Source: an uncultured Actinomycetes bacterium
GTDB lineage: Bacteria; Actinomycetota; UBA4738; HRBIN12
Length of the DNA stretch: 64,000 nucleotides
Assembly (NCBI GenBank): GCA_963828885.1
Contig: CAWHGC010000002.1
Coordinates: 83,474-147,473, forward strand
Direction of reading: 5' to 3'
The position numbers and the translations under genes were made by a program. The notes beneath the pieces are model-generated. The model was not told the DNA's origin. It did not search any database and worked only from the letters and a program-made list of their open reading frames with translations. Positions 41,680-59,202 of this stretch are shown piece after piece; position 1 is the first letter of the stretch, and the number at the start of each line of letters is the position of its first letter.

Positions 41680-41764
41680 GGCTCCTCCTGCGGGTCGACG
41701 TGCGCGCAGCGGACTATGCCACAAGGGGTCGCGCGACGCCCGCGCTGCCGGTAGCATCGCGCCG

Positions 41765-42283
41765 ATGCTGAGTCCCGACGAGGCGATCGACACCCTCGCC
41801 CGCGGTCACCGCGAGGTGCACGCGCTGCTGGCCGGCATCTCCCTGGAGGAGCTCGACGAGCCGGCCACGATCGGCGGCGGCGAATGGTCGGCGAAGGACC
41901 TCGTCGGTCACCTCACCACGTGGGAGGAGATCGCGCTCGCGACCGTCGAGGAGTGGCGGGCCGGCGAGGATCCCGCGATCCTGCAGACCCTCGCGGCCGA
42001 CGGCACCGACGAGCTGAACGCGGATGAGGTCGCCCGCAAGTCGGGGACGCCGCTTGAGGACCAGCTCGTCCGCTTCGACGACATCCATCGTGAGCTCGCC
42101 GAGGTCCTCGCGAGCCTGGCCGGCGCGGAGTGGTCCCAGGCGGCGCGGGACGACCGCGAGCCCGAGCGCACCATCGGCTCGCTGCTCGGCGGCGTGCTGG
42201 GAACCGACGAGCGCCCCTTCGATCACATCTCCGCGCACCTGCGGGACCTGCGCGCCTTTTCGGCACCGCGCGCCCCCGGTTAG
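41765..42283 (+). CDS. DinB/MDMPI-like four-helix-bundle protein
   Basis: WSAKDLVGHLTTWE, C-terminal H..AH. Confidence 0.75.
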   Translation: MLSPDEAIDTLARGHREVHALLAGISLEELDEPATIGGGEWSAKDLVGHLTTWEEIALATVEEWRAGEDPAILQTLAADGTDELNADEVARKSGTPLEDQLVRFDDIHRELAEVLASLAGAEWSQAARDDREPERTIGSLLGGVLGTDERPFDHISAHLRDLRAFSAPRAPG

Positions 42284-42364
42284 GTAACGGGCGGGGGACA
42301 GCGGAGTGAACGCTCCTCCCCACGGGTTGACTCCCACGCGGCCGCGTGCACAGACTGATCGTCG

Positions 42365-43051
42365 ATGACCCCCCTCCCCGCCCCCCCGGTGCGACCGACC
42401 GTTCGGGTGCTGCTCGTCGACGACCATCGGATGTTCACGCAGGCGCTCGAGGGGCTACTCGGGGGCGAGGCCGGTATCGAGCCGGTCGGGGTGGCAGGGT
42501 CGGTGGACGAGGCCCTCGCGCAGCTCGACGGCGCCCGGCCCGACGTCGTGCTGATGGACCTCGATCTGCCGGGTGCGAGCGGGATCGAAGGCACCAGAGA
42601 GGTTCGCCGGCGCCGGCCGGAGACGGCCGTCGTCATCGTGACGTCGCACGATGATCCCGATCTGATCGTCGACGCGATCCGCGCGGGCGCGTGCGGTTAC
42701 GTGTTGAAGACCCATGCCGTGGACGAGCTCGTGTCGATCATCCGGCAGGCCGCAGCCGGCGGGATGGTGCTGTCGCCCGACGTCCCGCAGCCGATCGGCG
42801 CCGTTCGTCGCCCTCGGACGGGACGGGATCGTGGCGGCCGGCACCCGCTTACGGAGCGGGAGATGGACGTGCTACGGCAACTCGCGAGCGGACGCTCGAC
42901 CGAGCAGATCGCCGATTCCCTCTTCATCAGCGTGCTCACCGTGCGCAGCCATGTGAAGAGCATCCTCGCCAAGCTCGGCGTGCACTCGAAGCTCGAGGCC
43001 GTCACCTATGCCCTGCACCTCGGGTTGATCGAGGTCAGCCGCCCGGCCTGA
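42365..43051 (+). CDS. NarL/LuxR family response regulator (no adjacent kinase)
   Basis: VLLVDDH, VLMDLDLP, GYVLK, LTEREMDVL...TVRSHVKSILAKLGV. Confidence 0.92.
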   Translation: MTPLPAPPVRPTVRVLLVDDHRMFTQALEGLLGGEAGIEPVGVAGSVDEALAQLDGARPDVVLMDLDLPGASGIEGTREVRRRRPETAVVIVTSHDDPDLIVDAIRAGACGYVLKTHAVDELVSIIRQAAAGGMVLSPDVPQPIGAVRRPRTGRDRGGRHPLTEREMDVLRQLASGRSTEQIADSLFISVLTVRSHVKSILAKLGVHSKLEAVTYALHLGLIEVSRPA

Positions 43052-43790
43052 CCGTGTCGTCGGGCCTCACCGCCCGGATCGTCAGCAGCAGTTGGTAGTT
43101 CGCGGCGTCGTCGGCCTCGAGCTCGTCGGCGGTGAGGTCCTCGGCGGCGAGGCCGTACAGGAACGCGGCGGCCGACAGGACGTTGCCGTGCGCGTGGACC
43201 TCGGCCTCGAGGCCGCTCTCCCGCAGCAGCCGTTCCAGAGATTGGGTGGTGAACCGCCAGAAGTCCCCCCAGAGTTCGGCGTCCGGATGCACGATCGCGC
43301 TGATGCCGGGGGCCGTCGCCAGCAGCACGCCGCCGGGGCGCAGGATGCGTCGGAGCGTCCTCAGGGCGGCCGGCACGTCGTAGATCTCGTGCAGCGTCTG
43401 CGTGAGGACGACGCAGTCGAAGGTGTCATCGGCCAGGCCCTCGCCGGTCGTGAGGTCGCCGACGATCGTGACGCCCGTGTGGCCCTCCTCCAGGTGCAGG
43501 ACGTCGGCGGTCGTGACGTCGGAGCCGAAGCTCCGGAGGTAGAAGTCGGCTCCGAGCTCGAGGCAGTGCCCCCGGATGTCCGACGAGCGCTGCCGGAGGA
43601 AGGCCTCGATGTAGTGGCGGTCGACCGGCTGCCCACGGTCGGAGCCCCACGTCGTCGAGATCGGGGTCGTCCGGCGCAGGTCGCCCAGGTCGATCGGCGC
43701 GTGCGCCCTCCGCGCGCGAGCCCACCGGCGGAGCCGCCGCCGGATCCCGGCCGGGAGCAGCGAGGTCGCCCTCGAGGTCAGTCCAGCCAT
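43035..43790 (-). CDS. SAM-dependent methyltransferase, glycan-locus type
   Basis: DRGQPVDRHYIEAFL, CLELG, FDCVVLTQTL, LRPGGVLL, DFWRFT. Confidence 0.8.
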   Translation of the reverse strand: MAGLTSRATSLLPAGIRRRLRRWARARRAHAPIDLGDLRRTTPISTTWGSDRGQPVDRHYIEAFLRQRSSDIRGHCLELGADFYLRSFGSDVTTADVLHLEEGHTGVTIVGDLTTGEGLADDTFDCVVLTQTLHEIYDVPAALRTLRRILRPGGVLLATAPGISAIVHPDAELWGDFWRFTTQSLERLLRESGLEAEVHAHGNVLSAAAFLYGLAAEDLTADELEADDAANYQLLLTIRAVRPDDTVRPGG

Positions 43791-44485
43791 GCCACGCCTT
43801 CGCCTCCCCGCCGGCGTTCCATCCGGCGCATCGCATCGCGCAGATCGTTCCACGAGCCGTCCCGGCCCGCCGCGAGCTGCGGGAGTTGCGACGCGTACGC
43901 CTCGATCGCCCGCTGCTTGGCGCGGCGGCTCCTCAGTCCCGCCCGCTCGACGGTCCACGCCGGGTCCATCGGGAGCCGCCCGGACAGCGCTCGGCCGCTG
44001 GGCCGTCCCAACCCGACGGCGTAGGGCTGTTCCACGTACAGCCCGAGCCGCCAGCCCGCCGGCCGGCGGTCGACGGCGAGGTCGCACAGCCACCGGTGGT
44101 CGGCGTGCGTCAACGGGAACCCCGGCGCGAGCACGGTGGCGGTGTCGCCGACCGCGTCGAGGACCTCGCGCCAGATCGGATCGTCGTCGACGCGTCCGTA
44201 CTGGGCGTCCCCGTGGTCGAGCCACACCGGCTCGAGGCCCAGCTCCGCGCATGCCGCTCGGTCCTCGGCACGCCGCCGCCGCGCGGCCTCGCCGGCGGTG
44301 GCAGAGCCCGAGGCCGCGTCCCACGGTCCCGCCGGCACCTGTGAGTCCGGCTCACCGGCCAGCACGGTCAGGACGCGGACGCGCGCGCCGCCGCGCGACC
44401 ACCCGGCGGCGGCCGCGCCCAGCGAGAACACACCGTCGTCCAGGTGCGGCGACAGGATCACCACGTCCGGCCCGGGATCGGTCAT
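43778..44485 (-). CDS. PIG-L family deacetylase
   Basis: VILSPHLDD, RRAED, THADH, YVEQPY, YASQ. Confidence 0.85.
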   Translation of the reverse strand: MTDPGPDVVILSPHLDDGVFSLGAAAAGWSRGGARVRVLTVLAGEPDSQVPAGPWDAASGSATAGEAARRRRAEDRAACAELGLEPVWLDHGDAQYGRVDDDPIWREVLDAVGDTATVLAPGFPLTHADHRWLCDLAVDRRPAGWRLGLYVEQPYAVGLGRPSGRALSGRLPMDPAWTVERAGLRSRRAKQRAIEAYASQLPQLAAGRDGSWNDLRDAMRRMERRRGGEGVAWLD

Positions 44486-45909
44486 CGCCAGCACCACCCC
44501 TCGGGCGGCGGGAACGGCTCCAGGATCCTCGGGCGCGGCGGATCGCCGGAGAGGGCTTCCGGACGGCAGTCGGAGAACCACATCCTTGCGTTCCACGCCC
44601 CCGGATCCAGCGGACGGAACGTGAGCACCGGCAGGAAGTACACGAGCCACCCGATCGACGCCGCCACGACCACCACCGTCAGCGCCCGCCCGCTCCTCCT
44701 CGGCCAGATACGCAGCCCGACCCGGGCGATCGCCAGACACAGGAACGGGACCGCGGGCAGGAAGTAGAAGCTGAACGAGAACGAGCGGACCGAGGTGACG
44801 GGCACCCACCAGAGATAGCCGGCCGCCACCCCGGCGAGGATCGCGCCCTCGGGCTCGCTCCACCGCCGGCGCCGCGCCCATCGCACGGCGCACACCACCA
44901 CGCACAGGGTCCCCATCCACCACACGACCGGGTTCCCGATCGCGAGGATCTCCCGGAAGGCGCCGCCGGCATCGTCGAAGTCGAACACGACGGGTCGCTT
45001 CAGCAGCGGCCAGGACCAGGCCGGCGAGCCGTACGGGTGGGACTCGGTGAGTCCCGCGTGATACGTGAGGATGTGGCCCTGGCGACGCAGGAACGCCCAC
45101 GCCCACGATCCACGATCCCACGGCGCGGCGAGGACCGTGCCGTCGAGGCGGCCGGCGAACGAGAGCACGTAGAGGACGAGCGGCAGGGCGACGAGCCACA
45201 CCGTCGTCGGCGCGAGGTCCGCGCGCATCGCCGTCCATCGGCCGGTCTCCCCGCGCTCGCGCGCCGCCGCCCGATCCCACACGAGGACCAGCACGATCGC
45301 GACGAGCAGGAACGGGATGCCCGACCACTTCGAGGCTGCGGCGGCGCCGCCCGCCACGCCGGCCGCCGGCAGCCAGGGCCGGTCGCGCAGGCGCTCGCCG
45401 GAGCGGCGCGTGCGGTCGCGGTCGAGCACCACGAACAGGATCGTGGCGACCGCGAACGTGGCGACGAACACGTCCAGCATCGCGGTCCTCGAGAGCACGA
45501 GGTGCATCCCGTCCACCGCAAGGAGTCCGGAGGCCAGCAACGCCCCGGGCGACGATCGGAGGAGCCGCCGCGCGAGCAGGTACGTGAGCGCGATGCCCGC
45601 GGTGCCGGCGAGGGCCGGCATCACACGCCATCCGAACGGTGTGTAGCCGAAGACCTTGATCCCACCGGCGATCAACCACTTCGCAAGGAGCGGGTGCTCC
45701 TCCGACAGCGGCGACGCGATCCCGCACACCGAGGGCGTCTTCACGAACACGCAGGCGTCCTGCGCGTAGTACACCTCGTCGAACACGATGCGCCCGGGCA
45801 CGGTGAGATGCCAGAAGCGCAGGAACCCGCCGGCCAGCGTCACGAATGCGAGCGCCCAGCCGTCCCATCGCGTCCAGGGGTAGTCGGCGACGGGGTCGTC
45901 GGCGGTCAT
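44482..45909 (-). CDS. Polyprenol-phosphate-mannose:protein mannosyltransferase-like (GT39/PMT)
   Basis: IVFDEVYYAQDA (DE motif), HPLLAKW, FGWR, SRTAMLD, SKWSG, HPYGSPAWSWP, GNPVVWW. Confidence 0.85.
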   Translation of the reverse strand: MTADDPVADYPWTRWDGWALAFVTLAGGFLRFWHLTVPGRIVFDEVYYAQDACVFVKTPSVCGIASPLSEEHPLLAKWLIAGGIKVFGYTPFGWRVMPALAGTAGIALTYLLARRLLRSSPGALLASGLLAVDGMHLVLSRTAMLDVFVATFAVATILFVVLDRDRTRRSGERLRDRPWLPAAGVAGGAAAASKWSGIPFLLVAIVLVLVWDRAAARERGETGRWTAMRADLAPTTVWLVALPLVLYVLSFAGRLDGTVLAAPWDRGSWAWAFLRRQGHILTYHAGLTESHPYGSPAWSWPLLKRPVVFDFDDAGGAFREILAIGNPVVWWMGTLCVVVCAVRWARRRRWSEPEGAILAGVAAGYLWWVPVTSVRSFSFSFYFLPAVPFLCLAIARVGLRIWPRRSGRALTVVVVAASIGWLVYFLPVLTFRPLDPGAWNARMWFSDCRPEALSGDPPRPRILEPFPPPEGWCWR

Positions 45910-46967
45910 GGCGTGTCCGGCGCGAGACGGGAGGCCAGCCGGGTCACGCGGCGTGTCACGTCCCGGACGCGGCGGTCGGCGCCGTCGCGGACATCGTCGG
46001 AGAGCAGGTCCTCCATACGCCGGCCGGTCGCCCACGCCGCGTCCCACGCCCGGCCGAACGCGGTCCTGGTCCTGGCACCGCGGAGCGCCGCGCTCCACCA
46101 GAGCCAACGGACGGCGGACGACACCCAGGCCGCCCACGCGCTTGCGGTGCGCGCACCCCGGTGACGGTCCGACGGCACTCCCGGCCGGGGCGCACGCCGG
46201 TAGTCGTTGCGACCGGCGGCGAACCCCTTCGCGAGGCACACCCGCGGCGACGGCACCGGCGTGCGGTGATGCACGACGGCGTCGGGCACGAACCACACCT
46301 CGCCGCCCGCTGCGCGCACCCGGGTCTGGAACTCGATGTCCTCGTTGAGCTCGGGCCGACCGGTCGCCGGCCGCGTCCCATCGCGCACGCCGAGGTCGTC
46401 GTCCCACGCGCCGAGCCGTTCGAACACGCGACGCGGCACCGCCGTGTTTCCGCCCCAGACCGACTCGGTTGCCTCGAGCGCCCGGCGATCGCCCCAGTCC
46501 ACGAAGACGAGCGACCGCGCCGCCCGGTCCGCGAACCACGAGGGCCACTCCCGGTCCTGCGGCACGGGGTGGATCGCGCCGCCGGCCACGATCAGCTCCT
46601 CGGCCCGGCGGTCGGCGAAGAACCCGAGGTATCCCTGCACGAAGCCGGGTTGCACGATCATGTCGTCGTCGGTGAAGATCAGCAGGGAGCCGAGCGCGGC
46701 GGCGACGCCGGCGTTCAACGCGGGCGCGCGGCCCAGGCGAGCCTCGCGCACGACACGAACGCGAGGGTCGCGCGCGGCCGCCTCGGCGGCGACCTCGGGC
46801 GTGCGATCGGTGGACGCGTTGTCGACGACGACGATCTCGAACGGAGTCGCAGATCTCTGAGCGGTGAGGCTCTCCAGGCAGTCCGCGAGGAGGGACGCGC
46901 GGTTGCGTGTGGGGATCACGACGCTGACCGTCGCCGGGGCGCCGCTCACGACGGGCTCGGGAACCAT
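45906..46967 (-). CDS. Glycosyltransferase family 2
   Basis: VSVVIPTRNR, VDNASTD, NAGV, FTDDD, EDIEF. Confidence 0.9.
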   Translation of the reverse strand: MVPEPVVSGAPATVSVVIPTRNRASLLADCLESLTAQRSATPFEIVVVDNASTDRTPEVAAEAAARDPRVRVVREARLGRAPALNAGVAAALGSLLIFTDDDMIVQPGFVQGYLGFFADRRAEELIVAGGAIHPVPQDREWPSWFADRAARSLVFVDWGDRRALEATESVWGGNTAVPRRVFERLGAWDDDLGVRDGTRPATGRPELNEDIEFQTRVRAAGGEVWFVPDAVVHHRTPVPSPRVCLAKGFAAGRNDYRRAPRPGVPSDRHRGARTASAWAAWVSSAVRWLWWSAALRGARTRTAFGRAWDAAWATGRRMEDLLSDDVRDGADRRVRDVTRRVTRLASRLAPDTP

Positions 46968-47653
46968 CCCCCGAAGGTTCGCCGCGCCAGCGCTCCGGCC
47001 GCCTCCTCGATGCGTTCGACGCGGTGGCTGCTGCCGGCCAGCGTGTCGAAGACGACCATCGAGTTGTACGTCGCCTGCCGACGGTCGACCGATCCGTCGG
47101 CCGCCGTCATGGTGAGCCCGCCGCCATGTCGCTCTTCCCAGCCCGGGGTGAGGTACATCACGAGGGCGACGCGCCGGCTGCGGTTCGCGTCGTCGTGTTC
47201 ACGGAGGAAGTCGCCGACACCGAACTCGTGACACCCGAAGTCGTCGCTCGGCCCGAGCTCGAGGCCGGTGATCGCCTCGAACAGATCGTGGAACGCCGGC
47301 TCCGTCACGAACGAACGCCACTGGAGGTACGTCAGCATGGCGTCGGAGAGCATCTGCTCCGGTCGCTGGCCGCTCAGCTTGCCGAAACGGAAGAAGCGGT
47401 CCTCCTCGGCGGCGGCGTTCCAGGTCTCGGCCGGCACGCCCTCCTCGGACGAGTACACGCCGTGCTCGACGGTGTAGAGGGCGGCATCGGCGAGGAACGT
47501 GGCGAGCCGGTCGGCGACCTCGGGCAGGAGGAACTCCTCCAACACGACCATACGCGCTGGGTGCGAGGTCATGGTCTCGCGATATCCGTCCAGCGCGTCG
47601 CCGGTGAGGTGCTGCGGCTGGATCCAGCGCCCGAGTGCGTTCGTGTCCACCAT
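46946..47653 (-). CDS. 2OG-Fe(II) oxygenase (prolyl-hydroxylase-like)
   Basis: FLREHDD (HxD), VALVMYLTPGW...GGGL, NSMVVF, SHRV (distal His), RRTFGGWF. Confidence 0.85.
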   Translation of the reverse strand: MVDTNALGRWIQPQHLTGDALDGYRETMTSHPARMVVLEEFLLPEVADRLATFLADAALYTVEHGVYSSEEGVPAETWNAAAEEDRFFRFGKLSGQRPEQMLSDAMLTYLQWRSFVTEPAFHDLFEAITGLELGPSDDFGCHEFGVGDFLREHDDANRSRRVALVMYLTPGWEERHGGGLTMTAADGSVDRRQATYNSMVVFDTLAGSSHRVERIEEAAGALARRTFGGWFPSPS

Positions 47654-47741
47654 CGTCCGGCACCTTACCGGTGGTGTCCGGGTCGCGCCAGGCTCGTCGC
47701 CGTTTGACGGGCGTGTTCGGAGCTCGCCACACTGCGCCCGC

Positions 47742-49067
47742 ATGGGCGATCCAGGTCTCGCCGCGGAGGGCGCGCCCGGCCTCGACCGGGTCCTCGACCG
47801 GATCCGCGGCCGAGGTGCCGGCGTCCTCACCGTTGCCCTCCCCGACCCGGACGCGCCGGACGGCCCTCCCGCGCACGTGCATCTGATCGTGGGATCGCGG
47901 GCTCACGAACGGATCGCGCGCGTGGAGCTCGCCGCCGGCGGCTGGTGGGTCCGGCTGGGCGAGCTCGGGGTCTGGCGGCTCGCGCGCACCGTCACGTACC
48001 TGTGGCCCGGCGAGCCCACGATCTCGCTGCACCGTGGCGTGCCGTCCGCGCCGCTGCCGGCCGCGGCCCTGCGCCGTCTGGAGGCAGCGATGCGCGATCG
48101 CGCGGCCGGGGACGGCTCGGTCGACGCGGCGGCCGCCGCCGTGTTCGCCGCGGTGCTGTCGGCGCGTCCCGGGTTCGACCGAGCGACCAGGGTCCGCGCG
48201 TTCGCGGCCATGGCGGCCGCGCTGCAGGACCCGACCGGGGCGCGTGAGCTCGCCGCCGCCACCGGCGTCGCCCGTGCGTTCGCCTGGGCCGAGCTCGCGG
48301 CCGCGTCGTCATCGCCGCCGCGCGGATCGGCCCCGCTCGCCGACGGAGGAGTGGGCGCGCTGCTGTGGCCGGCCGCCCGCCTCGCCGCCCGTGCGAGGCC
48401 TCCACGGCTGCGCGCGCTGCTGCTCGGCACGCCCAGGATCGGCGCCGCGCCCAGCCGCACGCGGTTCGCGGGCCTCGAGCTGGACGGCGGCCCCGCCGTG
48501 TTCGTGCCGAGGAGGATGAGCGAGCCGCTCGTCGGCCTCGCGGTCGAGCGGCTGGCGCCCGGCGACGTGATGGTCGAGGCCGGCACCGGCTGCGGGGCGG
48601 TGGCGCTGGCCGTCGCCCGCGCGCGGGCGGATGCGGAGATCCACGCGGTCGATACCTCGAGCGAGGCGGTCCGCTGGGCGCGGCGCAACGCCGCGAGGCT
48701 CGGCCTGGGCCGGGTCCGTTTCCATCGCGGATCGCTGCTGGAGCCGGTCTCGGCCGAGGTCGTCGGCCGAGTGGGCGTGATCGTCTCGAGCGTGCCGTAC
48801 GTGGCGCCCGGCCGGTGGGGCGACCGGGACCGGTACGGCGCCGTCGAGGGCGCGGGCGCCGACGGGCTCGACCTGCAGCGGGCGCTGGCGGCCCAGGCAC
48901 GAACCGCGCTCCGGCCCGGCGGACACCTGCTCCAGCAGGTGGGCGCCGACCAGTGGAGCGGGCTCGCCGAGGAGCTGGGGAAGATGGGGTTCGAGACCGG
49001 GGAGATCGTCGGCGGGAGCGCCGGCGACGTCCTCACGTGGGCTCGGCGGGATGACGAGAACGGCTGA
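47742..49067 (+). CDS. HemK/PrmC-like methyltransferase fused to a ~240-aa N-terminal domain of unknown function
   Basis: C-terminal VFVPRRMSE, EAGTGCGAVAL, VDTS, ARRN, GSLLEP, SSVPYV (NPPY-like), GADGL. Confidence 0.75.
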   Translation: MGDPGLAAEGAPGLDRVLDRIRGRGAGVLTVALPDPDAPDGPPAHVHLIVGSRAHERIARVELAAGGWWVRLGELGVWRLARTVTYLWPGEPTISLHRGVPSAPLPAAALRRLEAAMRDRAAGDGSVDAAAAAVFAAVLSARPGFDRATRVRAFAAMAAALQDPTGARELAAATGVARAFAWAELAAASSSPPRGSAPLADGGVGALLWPAARLAARARPPRLRALLLGTPRIGAAPSRTRFAGLELDGGPAVFVPRRMSEPLVGLAVERLAPGDVMVEAGTGCGAVALAVARARADAEIHAVDTSSEAVRWARRNAARLGLGRVRFHRGSLLEPVSAEVVGRVGVIVSSVPYVAPGRWGDRDRYGAVEGAGADGLDLQRALAAQARTALRPGGHLLQQVGADQWSGLAEELGKMGFETGEIVGGSAGDVLTWARRDDENG

Positions 49068-49135
49068 CATGCAGGCCGAACGGACCGGCATCGGACCTAG
49101 GTCCATCGCTCCTGGTCTTCTGGCCGTTGGGCCAT

Positions 49136-49165
49136 TTGACATCCCCTGCCTACGACGGTTACTGT
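49136..49165 (+). promoter_or_regulatory. Sigma70/HrdB-type promoter for the lasso precursor
   Basis: TTGACA (49136-41), 18-nt spacer, TACTGT (49160-65). RBS AAGGAGG at 49198-49204. Confidence 0.7.
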
Positions 49166-49208
49166 CCCCCGAAGCGAGCACGTGAACCCCCGACCGCAAG
49201 GAGGCGCT

Positions 49209-49355
49209 ATGCGCTACGAGAAGCCCGAGGTGAAGGACTTCGGTTCGATCGCCGGTCACACCTTCGACAACCCCGGTGTGGGCGACAAGAGCTCGGACAC
49301 CACGTTCGAGACCGACCCGATGTACGGCGAGTACTCGCACCCGGCCGCTTCCTAA
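49209..49355 (+). CDS. Lasso peptide precursor (A), 48 aa
   Basis: MRYEKPEVKDFGSIAGHTF-DNPGVGDKSSDTTFETDPMYGEYSHPAAS. YxxPxV and GxxxxxT(-2) leader motifs, strong RBS, directly upstream of the cyclase. Absent from the ORF track, apparently because of its length. Confidence 0.9.
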   Translation: MRYEKPEVKDFGSIAGHTFDNPGVGDKSSDTTFETDPMYGEYSHPAAS

Positions 49356-49384
49356 GGCCTGGTACCAAACCGAACAACCCTTTC

Positions 49385-49424
49385 GAGAGACGCCCGGCCC
49401 AACCGGCCGGGCGTCTTTCTTTCC
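49385..49424 (+). terminator. Intrinsic terminator-like hairpin between precursor and cyclase
   Basis: Perfect 12-bp stem AGACGCCCGGCC/GGCCGGGCGTCT (49388-99/49405-16), 5-nt loop, followed by TTCTTTCC. Confidence 0.8.
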
Positions 49425-49456
49425 TCCTCCCACAACCCTGCCGATACACTCCCCAC

Positions 49457-51216
49457 ATGGGTGCCCTCGTCGCCGTTCTCACGCGTTCCCACCCCCCGGA
49501 TCAGGGGGTGGCACGCCGCATGCTGGCGGCGGCGCCGCATCGCGGGAGCGTGCAGGACTCGATCGTCCGCGGGCGCTGCGTGCTGGCCGTCGCCACGACG
49601 GAGGAGGCCGGCGACGCCGGACTCGCGGCCGGCGACCGGTTCGCGCTGGCGTTCACGGGCGCCCTCGACAACCGCGAGGCCCTGGCGAAGGAGCTCGGCC
49701 TCGAGGCCGACGCCCCCCCGCCCGAGGTCGTGCTCGCCGCCTTCGGACGCTGGTCGGATGAGACGCCGTCCCACCTGCGCGGTGCCTTCGCCGGCATCGT
49801 GACGGATGGCCGGGCCGTCTGGTGCTTCCGCGACCATCTCGGCTTCCGCACCCTGTTCTTCCGCGAGGAACGCGAGGTCTTCGTCGCCGCCACCGAGGCG
49901 AAGCAGGTGGTCGAGGGGGCCGGACTCGCCAGGCAGCCCGACCTCGAGGTCCTCGAATCGATCTTCTACGGCGACTACGGCGACGACACGCCGTCGGCGC
50001 TCCGCGGCGTCTCGCGCCTGGGGAAGTCCCGCATCTTGCACGTGGGCGAGGGCACCTCGCGCGTACGCCGTTACTGGGATCCTCGCCACCTGCTCGAGAC
50101 CGCGCGGATGTCACCCGAGGAGGTGCAGGAGGCCTTCGACGAGCTCATGACGCAGGCCGTGGGACGGATGATGACCGGCTCCGACGTGGTGTCGCTGTCG
50201 GGTGGCATCGATTCGCCGGCGATCGCCGCCTACGGGGCACCCGAGCACGAACGGCGCTTCGGCCGGCCGCTCGCCGCGCTGTCGGCCGTGTTCCCGCACC
50301 TCCCCTCCGTCGACGAGTCCGAGTACGTGCACATGATGGCCGACCGGTACGGCCTGGAGCTGCACACCTACGAGAAGGCGGCGAAGCCGCTGGACCGGCT
50401 CGGCGAGTGGATGCGCCTGTTGGACGGGCCCATCCCGACGGTGCTGATCACCGACGCCGAGGAGCACTACCGCACCGCGCGCGACCTGGGGTTCCGGACG
50501 ATGCTCACCGGCGAGATCGCGGAGCTCGCGTTCGACATGCGCCGCCGCCTGCTGAAGCACCTGCTCACGCGGGGGCGCCTCAGTGCCGCCCGGCAGCACC
50601 TTGCCGGCCAGCGGAGCAAGGGCGTGGGGACGGCGGCGCTCGTCCGCCAGGTGGGCGCGGCGCTCGTGCCGGTCCGCCTCGAGGTCGCCGCGCGCCGGCT
50701 CCGCCGGCCGAAACCGAACGAGCGGCTGCCCGGCTGGATCGATCTCCGCCGCGCGACCTCGCGCGCGCCCGAGAACCGGTCGCAGGGATGGCGCGCCTGG
50801 CAGCTGTCGTGGTTCGACGGTCCCGGCCTCAGCATGGAGGCCGATGAGATCGTGCAGTCCACGATCGGCGTGTCGAGCCGGCGCCCCTTCGCCGACGTCG
50901 ACCTGTGGGAGTTCTTCATGTCGCTGCCGGCAGAGGTGAAGTTCCCGACGGTGGTCACCAAGGGCCTGATGCGGCAGCTCCTGCGCGGACGCGTACCCGA
51001 CCCGATCCTGGACCGACGGGAGAAGACCGTGTTCAACGAGTCCGTCCGCGAACGGATCGACTACACCGAGCTCCGGCGTCTCCTGGCGTCGCCGTCGCAC
51101 CCGATCGCCGGCGTCGACTACGACGCCCTCCTGGCCCGGATCGACGAGGGCGACCTCGGGGTCTTCGAGTACACGTGGGCGAAGGACCTCGCCGCCACCC
51201 ACGCGTTCATGGACGC

Positions 51217-51220
<4 letters not shown>
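49457..51220 (+). CDS. Lasso peptide cyclase (C; asparagine synthetase-like)
   Basis: RDHLGFRTLF, SLSGGIDS ATP-pyrophosphatase loop, LTGE, PFADVDL, KGLMRQ..PDPILDRREK. Lacks the N-terminal catalytic Cys of AsnB (MGALVAV). Confidence 0.88.
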
Positions 51221-52242
<1,022 letters not shown>

Positions 52243-52246
<4 letters not shown>

Positions 52247-53109
52247 GCGTCGAGGCCGGGCGCCGGCTCAGCGTCTCTCGGGCACGGAGAGCCGCAAGCT
52301 GAGCGCGTTCCTCCGTCGCGACTTCCTGGTCGCGTGGAGCTACCGTCTCTCCTTCGTCAGCGACTGGATCAACCATGCTCGTGCAGGTCGTCGTCTTCAA
52401 CTTCGTCGGCAAGCTGGTGCGACCCGGACGTCGTCGCGCGGCTTCGGCGTGCACCGACGTCGACGTACCTGGAGTACGTCGCGGTCGGTATCGCGTTATC
52501 GTCGTTCATGGCGGTCGCGCCTCGGCCGCGTCAACTCCGTGATCCGCCAGGAGCAGCTGCAGGGGACCCTCGAGTCCCTGCTGCTCACGCCGACCGCCTA
52601 CACGACGATCCAGATGGGCTCGGTCGTGTACGACATCGTGTACGTGCCGATCCGCACCTTCATCTTCCTGGGACTGACGACGCTGGTCTTCGGCACCTAG
52701 CTTCAACTGGACCGGGCTGGGTCCCACCCTCGCGATCCTGCTCGTGTTCATCCCGTTCGTGTGGGGCCTCGGCGTCGTCGCCGCGGCGTGGACCCTGACC
52801 TTCAAGCGGGGCACCGGCGTCGATCGGGATCGCTCACCACCTTCGTCACGATCGTGCCGGGCACGTACTTCCCGATCGGATGTCCTGCCGAAGTGGCTGC
52901 AGGCGATCTTCCAGCTTCAGCCCATGACGATCGCGCTGCAGGGGACCGCGAGGCGCTGCTGGCGGAACGCGGGATGGGCGGAGATCCTGCCGGCGATCGG
53001 CATCCTGATCGCCGTGTGCGTCGTCTCGCTGGCCCTCGGCACGTCTTGCCTTCCGGCGCGCCTTCAGCGAGGGAGCGCCGAGGCTCGCGGGACCCTTGGA
53101 CTGTACTGA
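52243..53109 (+). CDS. ABC-2 exporter permease (several frameshifts)
   Basis: RRDFLVAWSYRLSF, EQLQGTLESLLLTP, GTYFP, GTLGLY*. Confidence 0.78.
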
Positions 53110-53162: not shown

Positions 53163-53463
53163 ATGATCGATCCGAGCACCGTCATCCGCCACGATCCGCG
53201 GGCCACGTTCCGGCGGCTCGCCGACGGGCAGGGCGGCGTGGTGCTGCACCTCGACACCTCCCTGTACCACGGCGTCAACGAGATCGGCGCCGCGATCTGG
53301 GAGCTGTCCGAGGAGGGCATGCCCTTCGCGCGAGCTCGTGGTCGCGCTGCGCGCGCGCGTGGAGGAGCCGCCGGCGGACCTCGAGGGCGACGTCGAGGAG
53401 TTCGTGTACGCGCTGAAGGAGCGCGGGCTGATCCAGCTGGCCTCGCCCGACGACGAGGCCTGA
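53163..53463 (+). CDS. PqqD-family RiPP recognition element (lasso B1), frameshift near 53330
   Basis: GVVLHLDTSLYHGVNEIGAAIWEL...DLEGDVEEFVYALKERGLI. Confidence 0.88.
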
Positions 53464-54384
53464 GTGGCGCGCGCCACCCGAGTCCGGCGGCCGTCGCCTC
53501 GCGCGGCGCGTGCGGCGGCATGCTACGATGGGCGAAGGAGCAGGGCGTCGGCCGCCTGATCGAGGAGGACCAGCTCAATCCGCTCGAGCGGATCCCGCTC
53601 GCCGCCGCCAAGCGGCGCTGGCGCCGCGCGCATCAGGTGGCGCCTCGCGCGGTGCCGGTGTTCGTCGTGGGCCTGCAGCGCTCGGGTACCAACATGCTGG
53701 TGCGCGGCCTCGAGCGCTCGCCCGAGTTCGAGGTGCGGAACGAGAACGACCACGAGGCCTTCGACCGGTTCCACCTGCGGCCCGACCCCGTGATCCGGGC
53801 GCTCGTCGAACGCAGCGGCCAGGCCTACGTGCTGTTCAAGCCGCTGATCGACTCCCATCGCACGAACGAGCTCCTGGACGGACTCGGGACGCCGAGCCCG
53901 GGGCGCGCGATCTGGGCCTACCGCGACGTCGACGGCCGGGTCCGGTCGGCCGTGGCGAAGTTCGGCGACAGCAACCTGCAGGCGCTGCGGCAGATCGCGG
54001 CCGGCGACACCGGCATCTGGCAGGCCGGCGGGCTGTCGGCGGAGCGGCTCTCGCTGATCCGCTCGTTCGACCTCGGGGCCATGACGCCCGAGTCGGGGGC
54101 CGCGCTCATGTGGTTCCTGCGCAACCAGCTCTTCTTCGACCTCGGGCTCGATCGTCGCGCCGACGTGATGCTCGCGTCGTACGGGGAGACGGTCGACGAT
54201 CCCGAGGCGGCGGTCCGCCGCGTCTGCGCCTTCCTGGAGTTCCCGTATCGTCCGGAGCTCAGCGCGCACGTGGACCGGCGCGCGGCCGGCGACGCGGCCG
54301 GCGCTGGATCTCGACGCGCGGGTCCGCGAGCTCTGCACGGAGCTGGAGCGGCGCCTGTCGGGCGCGTACCGCGCCCAGCCGTGA
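53464..54384 (+). CDS. Sulfotransferase-family protein inside the lasso cluster (frameshifts at both ends)
   Basis: PVFVVGLQRSGTNML (5'-PSB), FKPL, WAYRD...RS (3'-PB-like), SYGETVDDPE..RRVCAFL. Confidence 0.75.
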
Positions 54385-54387
54385 GGC

Positions 54388-55560
54388 CTACGGCTCGTCG
54401 GTGACGTCGCGGAGGTAGTCGGCACGGACGCCCTCGCCGCCGGAGGGATGCAGCACGGCGGCGGGCTCGTGGTCACGGCCGCCGCCGCCCGGCTCGCCGA
54501 AGATCTCCCGCAGCACGTTGGCGGGACGCCGGGCGGCCCGCCGCGCGATCGAGCCGGCCGTCGCGAACCGTCCGTCCCGCACCACCTGCGGCCACAGGGC
54601 CGCCGGCGTGAGCTCGCCGTCGGCACGCTCCGTCGGCCACCAGCGATCGAACGCCGCGCCGATCCGCCGCCGCGCCGCGGAGGGCTCGAGGTCGCGCAGC
54701 ACCCAGACGGGCACCTGCGCGCCCAGGACGTCGCGGGCGCGCTGCAGGGTGGACGCGACGGCGGCGCCGGCGCGCCAGGCGAAGGCCCGCGCGACGACCT
54801 CGTCCCAGTCGAGCGTCTCGGCCGCGATCGACCGTTCGAGGTCCTTCATCCAGATCAGCCGGTCGCCGCCGGCGAGCGCCGCGTGCAGCGCGAGGTGCAC
54901 GACCGTGTCGACGGCCGAGAGCGTCTCGACCTCGACGCCGCTGACGACGACCGTCCGGGTGCGGGTGAGCACCGAGCCCATGTCCACGTCGAAGGAGTCC
55001 CGCACGACGGCGCGGTTCAGCAGGTGCCAGTGCAGGTCGGCGACGGTACCCATCGGCAGGGTGAGGTGCAGCTGTCCTCGCCGCTCGCGCCGGATCAGCG
55101 TCCAGTTGCGGTCGATGACGTCGACCCCGCCGCCCTGGAGGTAGGTCACCACCTCGGGGAAGTCCTCGCGCGCGATCAGCAGGTCGAGGTCGCGGTACGT
55201 CCGGAGCTCCGGCCGCTCGTAGCAGCGCTGCGCGAGCACCGGCCCCTTGAAGGTGATCCACTGGACCTCCAGCGGCGCGAGCATCGCGGCGAACCCGGCG
55301 AGATCGGTGACGATGCGCATCTGGTTGGCGGTCTGCGTCACGGCGTGACGATCGAGGGCCTGCATCGTGCGGACGTCGACGCCGTCGACCTCGCGCAGCT
55401 CGCGATGCACGAAGGGCAGCACCCGGTGGTGCCGGGCGAGTTGCAGCAGGGAGCCGAGCTGTCCGGCCTCGAGCACGCGCAGGAGCTCGGGCGGCGCGCC
55501 GCCGTCGTGCTCGCGGACGCAGGCGACGAGGGCGGCGCCCAGCATCGGGTCGGCGCTCAT
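54388..55560 (-). CDS. Nucleotidyltransferase family protein (NTP_transf_5-like)
   Basis: TFKGPVLA..YERPELRTYRDLDLLI, ADLHW, HLALHA, LIWMKDL. Confidence 0.85.
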   Translation of the reverse strand: MSADPMLGAALVACVREHDGGAPPELLRVLEAGQLGSLLQLARHHRVLPFVHRELREVDGVDVRTMQALDRHAVTQTANQMRIVTDLAGFAAMLAPLEVQWITFKGPVLAQRCYERPELRTYRDLDLLIAREDFPEVVTYLQGGGVDVIDRNWTLIRRERRGQLHLTLPMGTVADLHWHLLNRAVVRDSFDVDMGSVLTRTRTVVVSGVEVETLSAVDTVVHLALHAALAGGDRLIWMKDLERSIAAETLDWDEVVARAFAWRAGAAVASTLQRARDVLGAQVPVWVLRDLEPSAARRRIGAAFDRWWPTERADGELTPAALWPQVVRDGRFATAGSIARRAARRPANVLREIFGEPGGGGRDHEPAAVLHPSGGEGVRADYLRDVTDEP

Positions 55561-55955
55561 GCGTACCTCGCCAGCTCTTCGTGACGCCCACGGCCGGGCG
55601 GCGGGCCGACGTCGCGGCCGCCGAGCTCCACCCACGCGTGCGCGTCCTTGTCCTTCGGCTCGAGCGGCAGTCCGATCACGAGCTCCGCGTCGTCGCCCTG
55701 GTCGCGGAGCATGCGGAACAGCACCATCGAGGTGAACAGGCAGCGGGCGCGGAACGGCCCGACGCCGAGGGAGCGGCTCACGATGCGTCCGAGCCGCACC
55801 GGGGGGACGCCGGCGGCCGGTTCCCGCGAGACCCGTCGGAGCCGCGCGACGACGGCCGGCACCGGCTCGCGCCGCAGCCGCGTCCACGTGACGGCGAACC
55901 AGTACCACGAGCGGAGCACCAGGGAGATCTTGCGCGGCACCGAGAGGGAGCTCAT
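55557..55955 (-). CDS. Lasso peptide leader peptidase (B2, transglutaminase-like)
   Basis: RARCLFTSMVLFRML (catalytic Cys), LVIG, AHAWVE (catalytic His). Confidence 0.9.
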   Translation of the reverse strand: MSSLSVPRKISLVLRSWYWFAVTWTRLRREPVPAVVARLRRVSREPAAGVPPVRLGRIVSRSLGVGPFRARCLFTSMVLFRMLRDQGDDAELVIGLPLEPKDKDAHAWVELGGRDVGPPPGRGRHEELARYA

Positions 55956-56855
55956 GGCGATAGGCACGTGGCGATCAGCCGGTCGACGACCCGGTCCAGC
56001 GTATCGAACTCGAGCGGACGGTCGAGCAGCCACAGGGGCACGCTCGCCGCGAGGTCGGCGATGCCGGTGAAGGCTCGCACGCGCTCGGCGTCGGTGGGCA
56101 GGTTGAAGCTCACCGTGAAGAGTTCGGCAAGGAACCGGCTCGGCTCAACCCGGTACAGCTCGATGTTCGGAAGCCCCCGGCGCAGGATCACGACGCCCGC
56201 GAGGGGGACCGGGTCGCCGCTGCCGCGCAGCTCGTGGACGAGCTGGAGATGGACGCGGTCGGGATCGACGGCCACGACCTCGGTGCCGGCGATCGGGCCG
56301 AGTCGCTCGTAGACGTCGGGGCGGATCCGGATGGTTGCGGGCCCCGGCACCACCATGGGCTCGGCGCCCGACCGGCTGCACACGAGGTCCTCCGACAGCA
56401 CACGGTGACCGTTGCGCAGGAACCCGGCCGCGAGGGTCGTCTTGCCGAAGCGGCCCGGCCCGCAGAAGACGAGGGCACGCCCGTCGACCTCGACGGCGGA
56501 CGCGTGCAGGGGCAGGTCCCCGCGCCGCGAGAAGCACAGCGCCGCGGGAACGCCCCACAGGCGCTCCTCCCGACGCACCGCGTCCGCGTCGGGCGGGACC
56601 GTGATGCGGGGGACGTCGGGCTCCACACCGAACCCGCCCATGTCGTCGATCCACACGCCGTAGGCGGACGGATCGCCGTACATCCTCGCGCGGAAGGGGT
56701 TGTCCGGGCCGGGGTCGCCACTCGAGGACCGGCTCGACGTCCGGCTCCGGACCCGGGTCGGCCTCGACGACCACGATCGGGTCGCCGAGGCCGGTCCGCA
56801 GGTACGTGAGGGCGAGCGGGGAGTCGACCTCGTAGCCGTAGACGACCCCCGCCAT
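55952..56855 (-). CDS. HPr kinase-like P-loop kinase (lasso K-type), frameshift near 56715
   Basis: LPLHASAVEVDGRALVFCGPGRFGKTTLA...VLSEDL. Confidence 0.85.
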
Positions 56856-57246
56856 GCGCCTCCGGTGGCTCCTAGCAGCCCGAGACGCTGTCGCCGGCCT
56901 CGAGCCGGCGATGGACAGGCCGGCAACCAGGCTCAGGGAGAGCATGCGCTTCGTCCTCATCTACGTCCTCCTCCTCGGTCGCTCCGGGGGTCATCCGAGG
57001 GTGCAACAGCCTACATCGCGAGGTCGATGGGCCGGAGCGCGGCGGGAGTGGTCGATGGTGCTCCGGATCCGCGGCGAGCCGTACGCGGCGGCAGCGCCAT
57101 GCCGCATCCTGCGGGCGGCTCGGCGACGGCGAGCGCACGGCCTAGGCCACAGGAACGCCACACTTCCCGCCGCTCGGCAGGATGCGTGTGGCCCGAGCCG
57201 CACGGGTACCATGGCAGACCCCGGACGAAAGGCACGAGGTTCACGC

Positions 57247-58249
57247 GTGCAGGTGAAGGCCAACGGCGTCGAGCTCAGGGACTGGACCCACGTCATGGGC
57301 CGGCGCCTCACGCTGCTCGCCGTCATCCCCATCGTCGCCATGATGGTCGCCGGCGTGCTGGCGGTCCTCGAGCCGCAGACCTACCGGGCGACGGCGACGG
57401 TCATCATGCCGGGCCAGGCGACCAGCGGGCCGGTGTCCTCGGCCGTGTCGCAGTTCGTCGCCGACTTCGAGGGCAACATCACGTCCGACAGCGTCGCGCA
57501 GGCGACCTCGGAGGCGACCGGCGAGCCGAAGAGCGCCATCAGCGCCGGCATCAGCACCAAGCGCGAGGGCACGAGCAGCGTCGTCGAGGTCAGCTACACG
57601 GGCACGAACGCCGACCGGGTCGGTCCGGTGGCGGTCACGGCGGCCCGGACCGCGCTCGCGCAGCTCGCGCAGATCAGGCTCGACGTCGACCAGGCGCAGC
57701 TCGACCTCCACCAACGAGGCGTACGACCAGGCGCAGACGGACCTGCAGACCGCGGGCGAGGAGACGGGCATCGTCGACTTCGGCTACTTCCAGCGCGTCG
57801 GGCAGAAGCGTCTGATCAAGCTGGGCGATGCGCTCGGAGCGGCCCAGGAGACCGGCAACGGGGTCGCGCAGGCGCAGCAGCGCTTCGACGAGGCGTCGAC
57901 CCAGTTCACCGAGCGCCAGCAGCGACTACCAGGCCGCGCTCGACGCGCGCGAACGACGTGACGGAGGCTCGGACGTTCTTCACGAGCGAGGTGCTGACCG
58001 CGCAGGGCATCGTGAACCAGGCGCAGGAGAACACGCAGCGTCGAGGCGAGCCCTCCCCGGGCGACGAACCGGGTGACCTTCGTGATCCGGCGCGTGGTCT
58101 TCGCCGGGGCCTTCGGACTGCTGCTGGCGATCGCGCTCATCGTGCTGATGGAGTTCCTGCGGCCCTCGCCGCTGAACCGGATCCGGCGCGAGGCCGGCGT
58201 GCCCTCGGAGCCGGGTTCCCGGCGTGCACCCGGGCAGTACGTCGGGTAG
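57247..58249 (+). CDS. Wzz/chain-length-determinant-like membrane protein (frameshifts)
   Basis: VELRDWTHVMGRRLTLL-TM-PQTYRATATV, coiled-coil middle, C-terminal TM GLLLAIALIVLMEFLRP. Confidence 0.7.
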
Positions 58250-59201: not shown

Positions 59202-59202
59202 G

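What the first reader, a model, noticed from the sequence alone, without database searches (positions are those of the whole stretch)
49209..49355. Unannotated lasso precursor with an Asp1 core, probable 7-residue ring, long acidic tail and C-terminal Ser
Seen: leader MRYEKPEVKDFGSIAGHTF fits YxxPx(L/V)xxxGxxxxxTx exactly, giving the 29-aa core DNPGVGDKSSDTTFETDPMYGEYSHPAAS. The only acidic residue at positions 7-9 is Asp7. The core has six Asp/Glu and nine Ser/Thr/Tyr. Established: rings close between residue 1 (usually Gly, Cys, Ser or Ala) and Asp/Glu 7-9, and a C-terminal Ser is the kinase target in paeninodin-type peptides. Inference: an Asp1-Asp7 macrolactam, which would be a very unusual first residue. 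Phe14 or the Tyr residues are candidate plugs, and the Tyr residues in acidic context (DPMYGEY) resemble tyrosine-sulfation sites.
Basis: partly seen in the sequence, partly recalled or inferred. Interest (0 to 1): 0.85.

Follow-up and report, generated by a model that had tools for sequence, protein, structure and literature searches.

The report
Lasso peptide precursor, ring position doubtful

Summary
The 48-codon ORF at 49209-49355 exists exactly as described. It has 25 close homologues and 33 related genomic loci, and it lies directly upstream of a lasso cyclase. The cluster is paeninodin-like: A, C, ABC exporter, B1 and a sulfotransferase run one way, with an HprK-like kinase, B2 and an NTP_transf_5 nucleotidyltransferase converging on them. 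So "lasso precursor" is supported, and a kinase and a sulfotransferase really are present.

The proposed Asp1-Asp7 ring is not supported by the family. Only 8 of 22 distinct cyclase-linked cores have Asp or Glu at positions 7-9 after HT(F/Y). One complete cluster (L026) has acidic residues only at core positions 17 and 21. The C-terminal module D-x(1,2)-aromatic-x-E-x-S is present in 24 of 24 cyclase-linked loci and absent from 10 of 10 loci without a cyclase. A Lys lies 8-9 residues before its Asp in 18 of 22 cores (shuffles: mean 3.3).

The ring more likely closes on Asp36 or Glu41, which would make DNPGVGDK a spacer. Tyrosine sulfation is not supported, because the Tyr positions are not conserved. 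The frame breaks in the ABC and B1 genes look like assembly errors. I rate this a new variant of a known kind. No product has been observed.

The parts
49199..49205 (+). Ribosome-binding site AAGGAGG, 3 nt upstream of the ATG
   Evidence: Read from the sequence.
49209..49355 (+). Precursor gene A, 48 aa. Leader is residues 1-19 (Y3, P6, V8, G12, T18). Residues 28-48 carry the conserved module (Asp36, Glu41, Ser43) and the C-terminal Ser48.
49385..49419 (+). 15-bp GC-rich hairpin between A and C, followed by a weak T tract. Possible attenuator or terminator.
   Evidence: -35.2 kcal/mol, z = -5.6, 0 of 200 shuffles as stable. The consensus terminator scan did not call it.
49457..51220 (+). Lasso cyclase C, 587 aa, Asn-synthetase-like. 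Intact, in one frame.
   Evidence: Asn_synthase 1e-26 and GATase_7 6e-12; best NCBIfam hit is the lasso isopeptide cyclase NF033535, 4e-41, below that model's cut-off; one in-frame match of about 50% identity to the L020 cyclase.
51230..52221 (+). ABC transporter ATPase. Approximate limits, several frame breaks.
   Evidence: Short-read contigs show 1-nt indels at 51639, 51656, 51796, 51829, 51916 and 52025.
52233..53106 (+). ABC-2 type permease. Approximate limits, frame breaks.
   Evidence: Indel at 52518.
53163..53448 (+). B1, the PqqD-like RiPP recognition element. Two halves lie in different frames, with the break near 53328-53335.
   Evidence: PqqD halves in two frames; 65% and 76% identity to the L020 B1; one base is left out at 53331 in a short-read contig.
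53500..54404 (+). Sulfotransferase. Start is approximate.
   Evidence: Sulfotransfer_3 2e-9, above cut-off. Homologues at 49-81% identity in 7 of 33 loci.
54388..55635 (-). NTP_transf_5 nucleotidyltransferase
   Evidence: PF14907 2e-35..
55557..56033 (-). B2, the transglutaminase-like leader peptidase. Coordinates give the longest ORF; the true start is probably later.
   Evidence: PF13471 1.3e-14. NF033537 lasso B2, 46.7 bits against a cut-off of 33.
55952..56713 (-). HprK-related kinase. The ORF runs to 56926, but homologues and the confident part of the model begin near residue 72-77.
   Evidence: TIGR04352 1.6e-9, below cut-off; invariant G161, K162, T164; the fold matches ATP-dependent PEP carboxykinases and HPr kinase/phosphatases.
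47874..49067 (+). HemK/PrmC-like SAM methyltransferase directly upstream of A. Possible tailoring enzyme.
   Evidence: Homologues near the cluster in 4 of 33 loci: L029, L031, L033, L034.
46946..47830 (-). 2OG-Fe(II) oxygenase of prolyl-hydroxylase/Ofd1 type, divergent from the A operon. Possible tailoring enzyme.
   Evidence: Syntenic in L018/L030, L020/L025, L027 and L029.
43035..46967 (-). GT2 glycosyltransferase (45906-46967), PMT-family glycosyltransferase (44482-45870), PIG-L deacetylase (43778-44470) and methyltransferase (43035-43790). Link to the peptide is uncertain.
   Evidence: Partial synteny.

Best explanation
The ORF is the precursor gene (A) of a paeninodin-like, kinase-type lasso-peptide cluster in an uncultured high-GC bacterium. 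Shown here: the gene content (A, C, ABC ATPase and permease, B1, sulfotransferase; converging on them an HprK-like kinase, B2 and NTP_transf_5), conservation of the peptide, and synteny across many MAGs. Inferred from characterised systems: B1 binds the Y3-x-x-P6-x-V8 leader. The kinase phosphorylates a Ser of the linear precursor, either Ser43 or Ser48. The nucleotidyltransferase may extend that phosphate. The leader is removed, C closes a macrolactam, and the ABC pump exports the product. My reading of the ring: it most likely closes on one of the two invariant acidic residues of the C-terminal module (Asp36 or Glu41 of the precursor, core positions 17 and 22), not on Asp26 (core 7). That needs a new N-terminus 8-9 residues upstream. 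A cut behind the conserved Lys27 would give a 21-residue Ser28-Asp36 lasso of 2273.906 Da. A cut behind Thr32 would give a 16-residue Phe33-Glu41 form of 1782.720 Da. In both cases DNPGVGDK would be a variable spacer and not the ring.
For: Cluster identity. Conservation and synteny. Cyclase homologues are present in 23 of 33 loci that share the leader. Ring placement: (1) Asp/Glu at core positions 7-9 occurs in only 8 of 22 distinct cyclase-linked cores. (2) L026 is 68% identical and has all cluster genes as single in-frame matches. Its core has acidic residues only at positions 17 and 21, so a canonical ring is impossible there. (3) The module D-x(1,2)-[FYHW]-x-E-x-[SC] is present in 24 of 24 cyclase-linked loci tallied and in 0 of 10 loci without a cyclase hit. 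(4) A Lys lies exactly 8 or 9 residues before the module's Asp in 18 of 22 cores. After shuffling the residues before that Asp the mean is 3.3, and 0 of 20,000 shuffles reach 18. The Lys sits at core positions 5, 8, 9, 12 or 14, so the segment between leader and Lys varies in length. In all 62 distinct cores the count is 54 of 62. (5) A Cys three residues before the Asp goes with a Cys three residues after the Glu in 8 of 22 cores. In the others the pair is mostly Phe/Tyr/Leu with His, as if these two positions touch. (6) HT(F/Y) is also kept in six loci with A, B1 and kinase but no B2. In LPP precursors a Thr at the same Tyr+15 spacing lies at -1 of a cut made by a different peptidase. So T18 alone does not fix the B2 cut site.
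Against: The leader matches the canonical lasso spacing at all five positions, which in characterised systems places the cut one residue after the Thr (Duan et al. 2023). Within the closest homologues, DNPGxGDKS is the best-conserved part of the core, as a ring would be. Over all 62 cores Asp/Glu at 7-9 is present in 43, although that set is dominated by near relatives of the query. No second peptidase is seen in the cluster, and no lasso system with a spacer removed in a second step was found in the papers I read. The Lys-Asp spacing fails in 4 of 22 cores (distances 10, 10 and 11, and no Lys in L019). The sequences are kin, so the shuffle test overstates independence. The choice between Asp36 and Glu41 is not resolved. 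No product has been observed.
Confidence: 0.55

Rival explanations
1. B2 cuts between F19 and D20, and the cyclase joins the alpha-amine of Asp20 to the side chain of Asp26. This gives a 7-residue ring with a 22-residue acidic tail ending in Ser. It would be a lasso peptide with Asp at position 1.
For: All five canonical leader positions fit this cut (rule as stated). Asp7 is present in the window and in 43 of 62 distinct cores. DNPGxGDKS is highly conserved among close homologues.
Against: 14 of 22 cyclase-linked cores lack Asp/Glu at positions 7-9. L026-L028 and L031 have Gln1 and Thr7 with intact clusters. Position 1 varies (D, N, Q, G, K, I, T, V, S, L, Y, E). The length of the leader-to-Lys segment also varies, which is unusual for a ring. 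A 29-residue product with a 22-residue tail would be unusually long (recalled, not tested).
Confidence: 0.22
2. Side-chain ring. After leader removal, the cyclase joins the epsilon-amine of the conserved Lys27 to the side chain of Asp36, a 10-residue side-chain-to-side-chain ring. The N-terminal segment stays on as a second free end.
For: The Lys-Asp spacing is conserved (18 of 22; 54 of 62). Lys27 is invariant in the wide alignment. No second peptidase is needed.
Against: In the passages read, the nucleophile of lasso cyclases is always the N-terminal amine. The cyclase-less loci L039 and L046 also carry a Lys near the start of the core, so the Lys has a role that does not depend on a cyclase.
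Confidence: 0.08
3. No ring is made here. Either the product is a linear phosphorylated or glycosylated peptide as in LPPs, or the cluster in this genome is dead because ABC ATPase, permease and B1 are frameshifted.
For: Frame breaks in three genes. Linear relatives exist: loci with the same leader but no cyclase, and LPPs in Bacillota.
Against: The cyclase is intact. The same three genes are intact in the same-genus genome, whose breaks fall in other genes: A, C, 2OG and GT2. Short-read contigs of about 95-97% identical DNA differ from the window by 1-nt indels at the break sites and show none across the cyclase. Similar frame-switch patches occur elsewhere in the window.
Confidence: 0.08
4. 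Chance ORF in high-GC DNA, not a gene.
For: Many spurious ORFs overlap this region.
Against: Searches show conservation at the protein level across many genomes. There is a ribosome-binding site, and the position next to cyclases is fixed.
Confidence: 0.01

Closest known systems
Paeninodin-type lasso clusters (Paenibacillus dendritiformis and other Firmicutes and Proteobacteria). Read in the review PMC8498205 (passages); the original JBC paper is not held.
   Same: Split B1/B2, cyclase, ABC export, an HPr-kinase homologue, an acidic precursor ending in Ser, and in some clusters a nucleotidyltransferase and a sulfotransferase.
   Different: The hosts here are uncultured Actinomycetota and Chloroflexota MAGs (titles). 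The exporter is a two-gene ABC-2 type. The family's cores often have no acceptor at positions 7-9. The kinase scores below the TIGR04352 cut-off.
Pseudomycoidin (Bacillus pseudomycoides). Seen in review passages and the abstract start in the listing.
   Same: Kinase plus nucleotidyltransferase. The C-terminal Ser is phosphorylated and then glycosylated, and the modification helps hold the threaded fold.
   Different: No sequence comparison was made here. Per its title, the pseudomycoidin cyclase works without leader and peptidase. This is relevant as a precedent for relaxed processing, but it was not tested for this cluster.
Bsf cluster of Bradymonas sediminis (Duan et al. 2023, PMC10368454; abstract and section 22 read).
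   Same: Kinase-type lasso cluster with a YxxPxL leader. B1 assists both the kinase and B2. It departs from the Thr(-2) rule.
   Different: BsfK phosphorylates core Ser3, and the core has Gly1 and Asp8. Here Thr is kept at the canonical place, but the acceptor at 7-9 is not conserved.
Linear polyphosphorylated peptides, LPPs (Popov et al. 2026, PMC13381572; abstract and sections 6 and 7 read).
   Same: RRE, HprK-like kinase, NTP transferase and exporter, with a leader carrying YxxPxV and a Thr at Tyr+15. They occur next to glycosyltransferase-rich loci. The cyclase-less loci found here (L037-L041, L044, L046, L053) resemble them.
   Different: LPP clusters use an SpI-like peptidase and have no cyclase. 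The window's cluster has B2 and an intact cyclase.
Fusilassin (passages of PMC12480086).
   Same: The variants quoted there start with Trp and carry Glu at position 9. This is a precedent for an aromatic first residue, as in the Phe33-Glu41 option.
   Different: No kinase-type tailoring. Its core follows the leader directly.

Membership tests
Lasso peptide biosynthetic cluster | Asn-synthetase-like macrolactam cyclase (C) | tested here: met
   Asn_synthase and GATase_7 above cut-offs; best NCBIfam hit is a lasso cyclase model (141 bits, below its 525-bit cut-off). The gene is intact.
Lasso peptide biosynthetic cluster | B1 (PqqD-like RRE) and B2 (transglutaminase-like peptidase) | tested here: met
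   B2: PF13471 and NF033537 above cut-offs. B1: PqqD in two frames, 65-76% identical to an intact B1. The break is probably an assembly error.
Lasso peptide biosynthetic cluster | Precursor leader with Tyr(-17), Pro(-14), Leu/Val(-12), Thr(-2) | tested here: met
   Y3, P6, V8 and T18 relative to D20. Y3, P6, G12 and T18 are invariant in both alignments.
Lasso peptide biosynthetic cluster | Asp/Glu acceptor at core position 7, 8 or 9 counted from the residue after the leader | tested here: inconclusive
   Met in the window (Asp7). Met in only 8 of 22 distinct cyclase-linked homologous cores and 43 of 62 of all cores.
Lasso peptide biosynthetic cluster | Threaded lariat topology of the product | not testable with these tools
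   Needs MS/MS, protease or thermal tests, or NMR.
Paeninodin-type (phosphorylated) lasso peptides | HPr-kinase homologue in the cluster | tested here: met
   TIGR04352 1.6e-9, below cut-off. Invariant G-K-T Walker A residues. The fold matches PEP carboxykinase and HprK/P. A homologue is present in 28 of 33 loci.
Paeninodin-type (phosphorylated) lasso peptides | C-terminal Ser as phospho-acceptor | tested here: inconclusive
   Ser is the last residue in the window and in 47 of 62 cores. Ser43 is at least as conserved. Related kinases use Ser3 instead. The site cannot be assigned from sequence.
Tyrosine-sulfated peptide | Sulfotransferase gene in the cluster together with a conserved Tyr | tested here: not met
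   The sulfotransferase is present. No Tyr position is shared by the loci that have it, and L055 has no Tyr in its core. Tyr39 and Tyr42 alternate with Phe.
Linear polyphosphorylated peptides (LPP) | SpI-like leader peptidase and no cyclase | tested here: not met
   A cyclase and B2 are present. No signal-peptidase family appeared among the ORFs scanned.

The most novel reading that the evidence does not exclude
The cyclase does not use the new N-terminus at all. It joins the side chain of the invariant Lys27 to Asp36, giving a lasso-like ring that keeps a free N-terminal extension. This would be a side-chain-to-side-chain macrolactam made by a lasso cyclase. A milder form of the same idea has a probability of about 0.35. 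In that form the family has a variable spacer between a canonical leader and the true core, the spacer is removed by a second cut behind Lys, and current core-prediction rules mis-place the ring for this whole family.
Probability: 0.08. Interest if true: 0.85.

Novelty: new variant of a known kind. Interest (0 to 1): 0.55.

Why it matters
Lasso precursors are predicted by a simple rule: the core starts after Thr-x and the acceptor sits at position 7-9. This family keeps a textbook leader and a complete enzyme set, yet breaks the rule in most members. It keeps a C-terminal Asp/Glu module and a Lys at a fixed distance from it. If the ring forms there, the family shows a processing step that has not been described for lasso peptides: either a spacer removed in a second cut, or a Lys-based ring. 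Genome-mining tools would then be predicting the wrong product for it. The finding also extends kinase, nucleotidyltransferase and sulfotransferase lasso clusters, known from Firmicutes and Proteobacteria, to uncultured soil Actinomycetota and Chloroflexota. The cluster includes a sulfotransferase, and no paper listed by my library search reports a sulfated lasso peptide in its title or abstract start.

Tried and rejected
- **Cyclase against genome contigs.** 226 pattern matches were found, but none was confirmed. The genome search on relatives then found the homologues.
- **Wide alignment A2.** It was too diverse for the search for related loci in both collections. A1 was then used on genome contigs. 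The metagenome scan was not repeated.
- **Pseudogene reading of the cluster.** Rejected as the main reading.
- **Cut directly behind T18 (Phe19 as residue 1, Asp26 as residue 8).**
- **Tyrosine sulfation.** No conserved Tyr.
- **PDB sequence searches.** No relative for the cyclase at E <= 0.001 and nothing meaningful for B2.
- **Consensus promoter and terminator scan of 48900-49600.** Nothing found. The hairpin has only a weak T tract.
- **Expression.** No RNA holder was listed for this stretch, so there is no evidence on expression either way.
- **Read laying.** Only contigs were laid, and parts of the stretch had no cover. The depth spike at 51365-51515 is the conserved ABC Walker A region of many organisms, not a feature of this locus.
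- The original paeninodin paper (PMC4919450) is not held.

Full report
**Observation.** The ORF is there as described. ATG is at 49209, TAA ends at 49355, and AAGGAGG lies 3 nt upstream. A 15-bp hairpin follows at 49385-49419 (-35.2 kcal/mol, z = -5.6). The strict terminator scan does not call it. The window has 71.6% G+C and many spurious ORFs, so conservation is the real test. One search returned 25 proteins of 26-84 aa, 23 of them full-length matches at 67-98% identity. One search returned 22 cluster representatives at E <= 0.001 out of 1.84 billion. The close alignment has invariant Y3, P6, D10, G12, S13, I14, H17, T18, P22, G25 and E41. The wide alignment keeps Y3, P6, G12, T18 and K27 invariant, and I14, P22, G23, E41 and S43 nearly so. 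The peptide has no Pfam or NCBIfam family. It is single-copy in the assembled 2.22 Mb of a genome estimated 67% complete.

**Surroundings.**
- Downstream on the + strand lie an intact Asn-synthetase-like cyclase (49457-51220), an ABC ATPase, an ABC-2 permease, a PqqD-like B1 and a sulfotransferase.
- Converging on the minus strand lie an HprK-related kinase, B2 and an NTP_transf_5 nucleotidyltransferase.
- The kinase call rests on four things. TIGR04352 matches at 1.6e-9, below its cut-off. G161, K162 and T164 are invariant in 18 homologues. The AlphaFold model has pLDDT 75.7 overall and above 80 from residue 80. Foldseek hits are ATP-dependent PEP carboxykinases and HPr kinase/phosphatases. 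That these two groups share one P-loop fold is my recollection.
- Upstream lie a HemK-like methyltransferase on the same strand and, diverging, a 2OG-Fe(II) oxygenase, GT2, a PMT-family transferase, PIG-L and a methyltransferase.
- This gene set is the known paeninodin/pseudomycoidin type described for Firmicutes and Proteobacteria (review passages).

**Frame breaks.** The ABC ATPase, permease and B1 genes are each split over reading frames. I read these as assembly errors for three reasons.
1. Frame-switch patches also occur at about 0.2-4.6 kb and 57-62 kb of the window.
2. In the same-genus genome (L018) these three genes are single in-frame matches, while A, C, 2OG and GT2 are the split ones.
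3. Contigs of four public soil or rhizosphere runs that carry about 95-97% identical DNA differ from the window by single-base indels at 51639, 51656, 51796, 51829, 51916, 52025, 52518, 53331, 53468/53470 and 53523. Three contigs that together cover 49466-51232 (the cyclase) show no gap.

The indel at 53331 lies inside the B1 break. By my arithmetic on the frames, one base fewer there puts both halves in one frame. These contigs come from related strains, not necessarily from this organism, so real decay is not excluded.

**Relatives.** Cyclase homologues at 47-55% identity were found in 4 related genomes. Overall 12 of 61 genomes, G000 included, have a match at E <= 1e-10. All 4 have a homologous peptide gene in the same locus: directly upstream of the cyclase in three, and ahead of the ABC genes in L021. 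A pattern scan with the close alignment gave 33 loci, all MAGs titled Actinomycetota (including Acidimicrobiia, Gaiellales, Nitriliruptorales and Jatrophihabitans), Chloroflexota or 'bacterium'. Within up to 8 kb on either side, tblastn with the cluster's proteins found the following:

| Gene | Loci with a hit (of 33) |
|---|---|
| B1 | 29 |
| Kinase | 28 |
| Cyclase | 23 |
| B2 | 21 |
| NTP_transf_5 | 14 |
| Sulfotransferase | 7 |
| GT2 (strong matches) | 6 |
| 2OG oxygenase | 4 |
| PMT | 4 |
| HemK-like methyltransferase | 4 |

Ten loci have no cyclase hit:
- Six have only A, B1 and the kinase (L037, L038, L040, L041, L044, L053).
- Two have everything but the cyclase (L039, L046).
- Two short contigs have no hit at all (L042, L043).

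Four of the ten are contigs under 7.1 kb, so absence of a cyclase is less firm there. These loci recall the cyclase-less LPP clusters of Bacillota.

**Where the leader ends.** All peptides share Y-x-x-P-x-[VILA]-x-D-[FY]-G-S-I-x-x-H-T-[FY], and their sequences diverge directly after it. By the rule used for kinase-type clusters (Tyr-17, Pro-14, Leu-12) the core starts at D20. Two cautions apply. The HT(F/Y) element is equally conserved in the six loci without B2. In LPPs a Thr at the same Tyr+15 spacing is the last leader residue for a different peptidase.

**Where the ring is.**
- Among 22 distinct cores from 24 cyclase-linked loci, only 8 have one. L024 was left out because its peptide equals that of L023.
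- L026, L027, L028 and L031 read Q-T-P-G-x-G-T-K-S, with all cluster genes present as single matches. L026's core has only two acidic residues, at positions 17 and 21.
- What all 24 loci share is the module D-x(1,2)-[FYHW]-x-E-x-[SC] near the C-terminus. None of the 10 cyclase-less loci has it.
- A Lys lies 8 or 9 residues before the module's Asp in 18 of 22 cores, although its distance from the leader is 5, 8, 9, 12 or 14 residues. Shuffling the residues before the Asp gives a mean of 3.3, and none of 20,000 shuffles reaches 18. Because the sequences are related, this figure overstates independence.
- Over all 62 distinct cores, which include 38 proteins of unknown context and are dominated by close relatives of the query, the counts are 43 for an acceptor at 7-9 and 54 for the Lys spacing.
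- If instead the ring starts three residues before the Asp and closes on the Glu (8-9 residues by construction), the residue at -2 is Thr, Ile or Val in 16 of 22 cores (my count from the cores printed) and in 44 of 62. Ile or Val at -2 has precedent in phosphorylated lasso peptides.
- A Cys three residues before the Asp is paired with a Cys three residues after the Glu in 8 of 22 cores. Otherwise the pair is mostly Phe/Tyr/Leu with His.

I conclude that the cyclase's conserved substrate feature is the C-terminal module and that DNPGVGDK is more likely a spacer. I cannot decide between Ser28-Asp36 (21 residues, 12-residue tail) and Phe33-Glu41 (16 residues, 7-residue tail with only small residues at its end). 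I give the first somewhat more weight, for two reasons. The cut site is marked by an invariant Lys followed mostly by Ser or Gly (46 of 54). The tail is also long enough to carry plugs. The weakness of both options is that no second peptidase is in the cluster. Canonical lasso chemistry uses the N-terminal amine and an acceptor at positions 7-9.

**Tailoring.** Which Ser the kinase uses is open. The C-terminal Ser is kept in 47 of 62 cores. Ser43 is nearly invariant. Related kinases use the C-terminal Ser (paeninodin) or Ser3 (Bsf; LPP). The sulfotransferase has no assignable target. No Tyr is common to the loci that carry it, and L055 has none. None of the 12 papers listed by the search 'lasso peptide' + 'sulfation' reports a sulfated lasso peptide in its title or abstract start. 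The link of the oxygenase and glycosyltransferase block to the peptide is suggested only by recurring, rearranged neighbourhood. Such clusters are known to sit in glycosyltransferase-rich loci, so I leave it open.

**Unpublished genomes.** The intact reference architecture first came from L020 (G034, flagged unpublished). A contig of the same length and content was also returned as L025. G002 and G041, also flagged, enter only the tally.

**Verdict.** The specific Asp1-Asp7 ring and the Tyr sulfation are not supported. This is a new variant of a known kind, and all statements about the product are inference.

Noticed in passing
window 200-4600 and 57000-62100: The best coding phase switches every few hundred bases, as it does in 51.2-54.4 kb. 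This suggests patchy single-base indel errors in this assembly.
   Followed up: partly
L037, L038, L040, L041, L044, L053 (peptide at about 8001 in most): Minimal modules of a precursor with the same leader, a PqqD-like B1 and the HprK-like kinase. No cyclase, B2 or exporter hit was found. Their cores lack the Asp/Glu module, and several carry a G-G-S-G-like motif. In L040 the neighbours are housekeeping genes, LeuRS and Lgt. They look like an actinobacterial counterpart of linear phosphorylated peptides.
   Followed up: partly
L039 5671-9564; L046 738-4547: Clusters with A, ABC ATPase, permease, B1, kinase, B2 and NTP_transf_5 but no cyclase hit. Both cores end in Pro-Ser and have a Lys at core position 3-4.
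   Followed up: no
L023 152-295 and L024 8001-8144: One MAG carries two identical precursor genes on two contigs, each followed by a cyclase gene. The second contig also holds the PMT, NTP_transf_5 and sulfotransferase homologues.
   Followed up: no
window 47874-49067 (+): A HemK/PrmC-like methyltransferase with an N-terminal part of about 230 residues that has no family match. It lies directly upstream of the precursor gene. Homologues lie in or beside the cluster in L029, L031, L033 and L034.
   Followed up: partly
Precursor family, positions Asp-3 and Glu+3 of the C-terminal module: Paired change: Cys with Cys in 8 of 22 cores, and otherwise mostly Phe/Tyr/Leu with His. This suggests a disulfide in one subfamily and a contact between these positions.
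   Followed up: partly
window 51365-51515: A depth spike of thousands in all four laid runs. It coincides with the Walker A region of the ABC ATPase and comes from many unrelated organisms. It is an artefact of conserved sequence.
   Followed up: no
window 41597-43051 and 56854-58275: A DinB-like protein and a LuxR-type response regulator lie upstream of the glycosyltransferase block. A Wzz-like chain-length determinant lies beyond the kinase, which hints that the cluster sits in a cell-envelope polysaccharide region.
   Followed up: no
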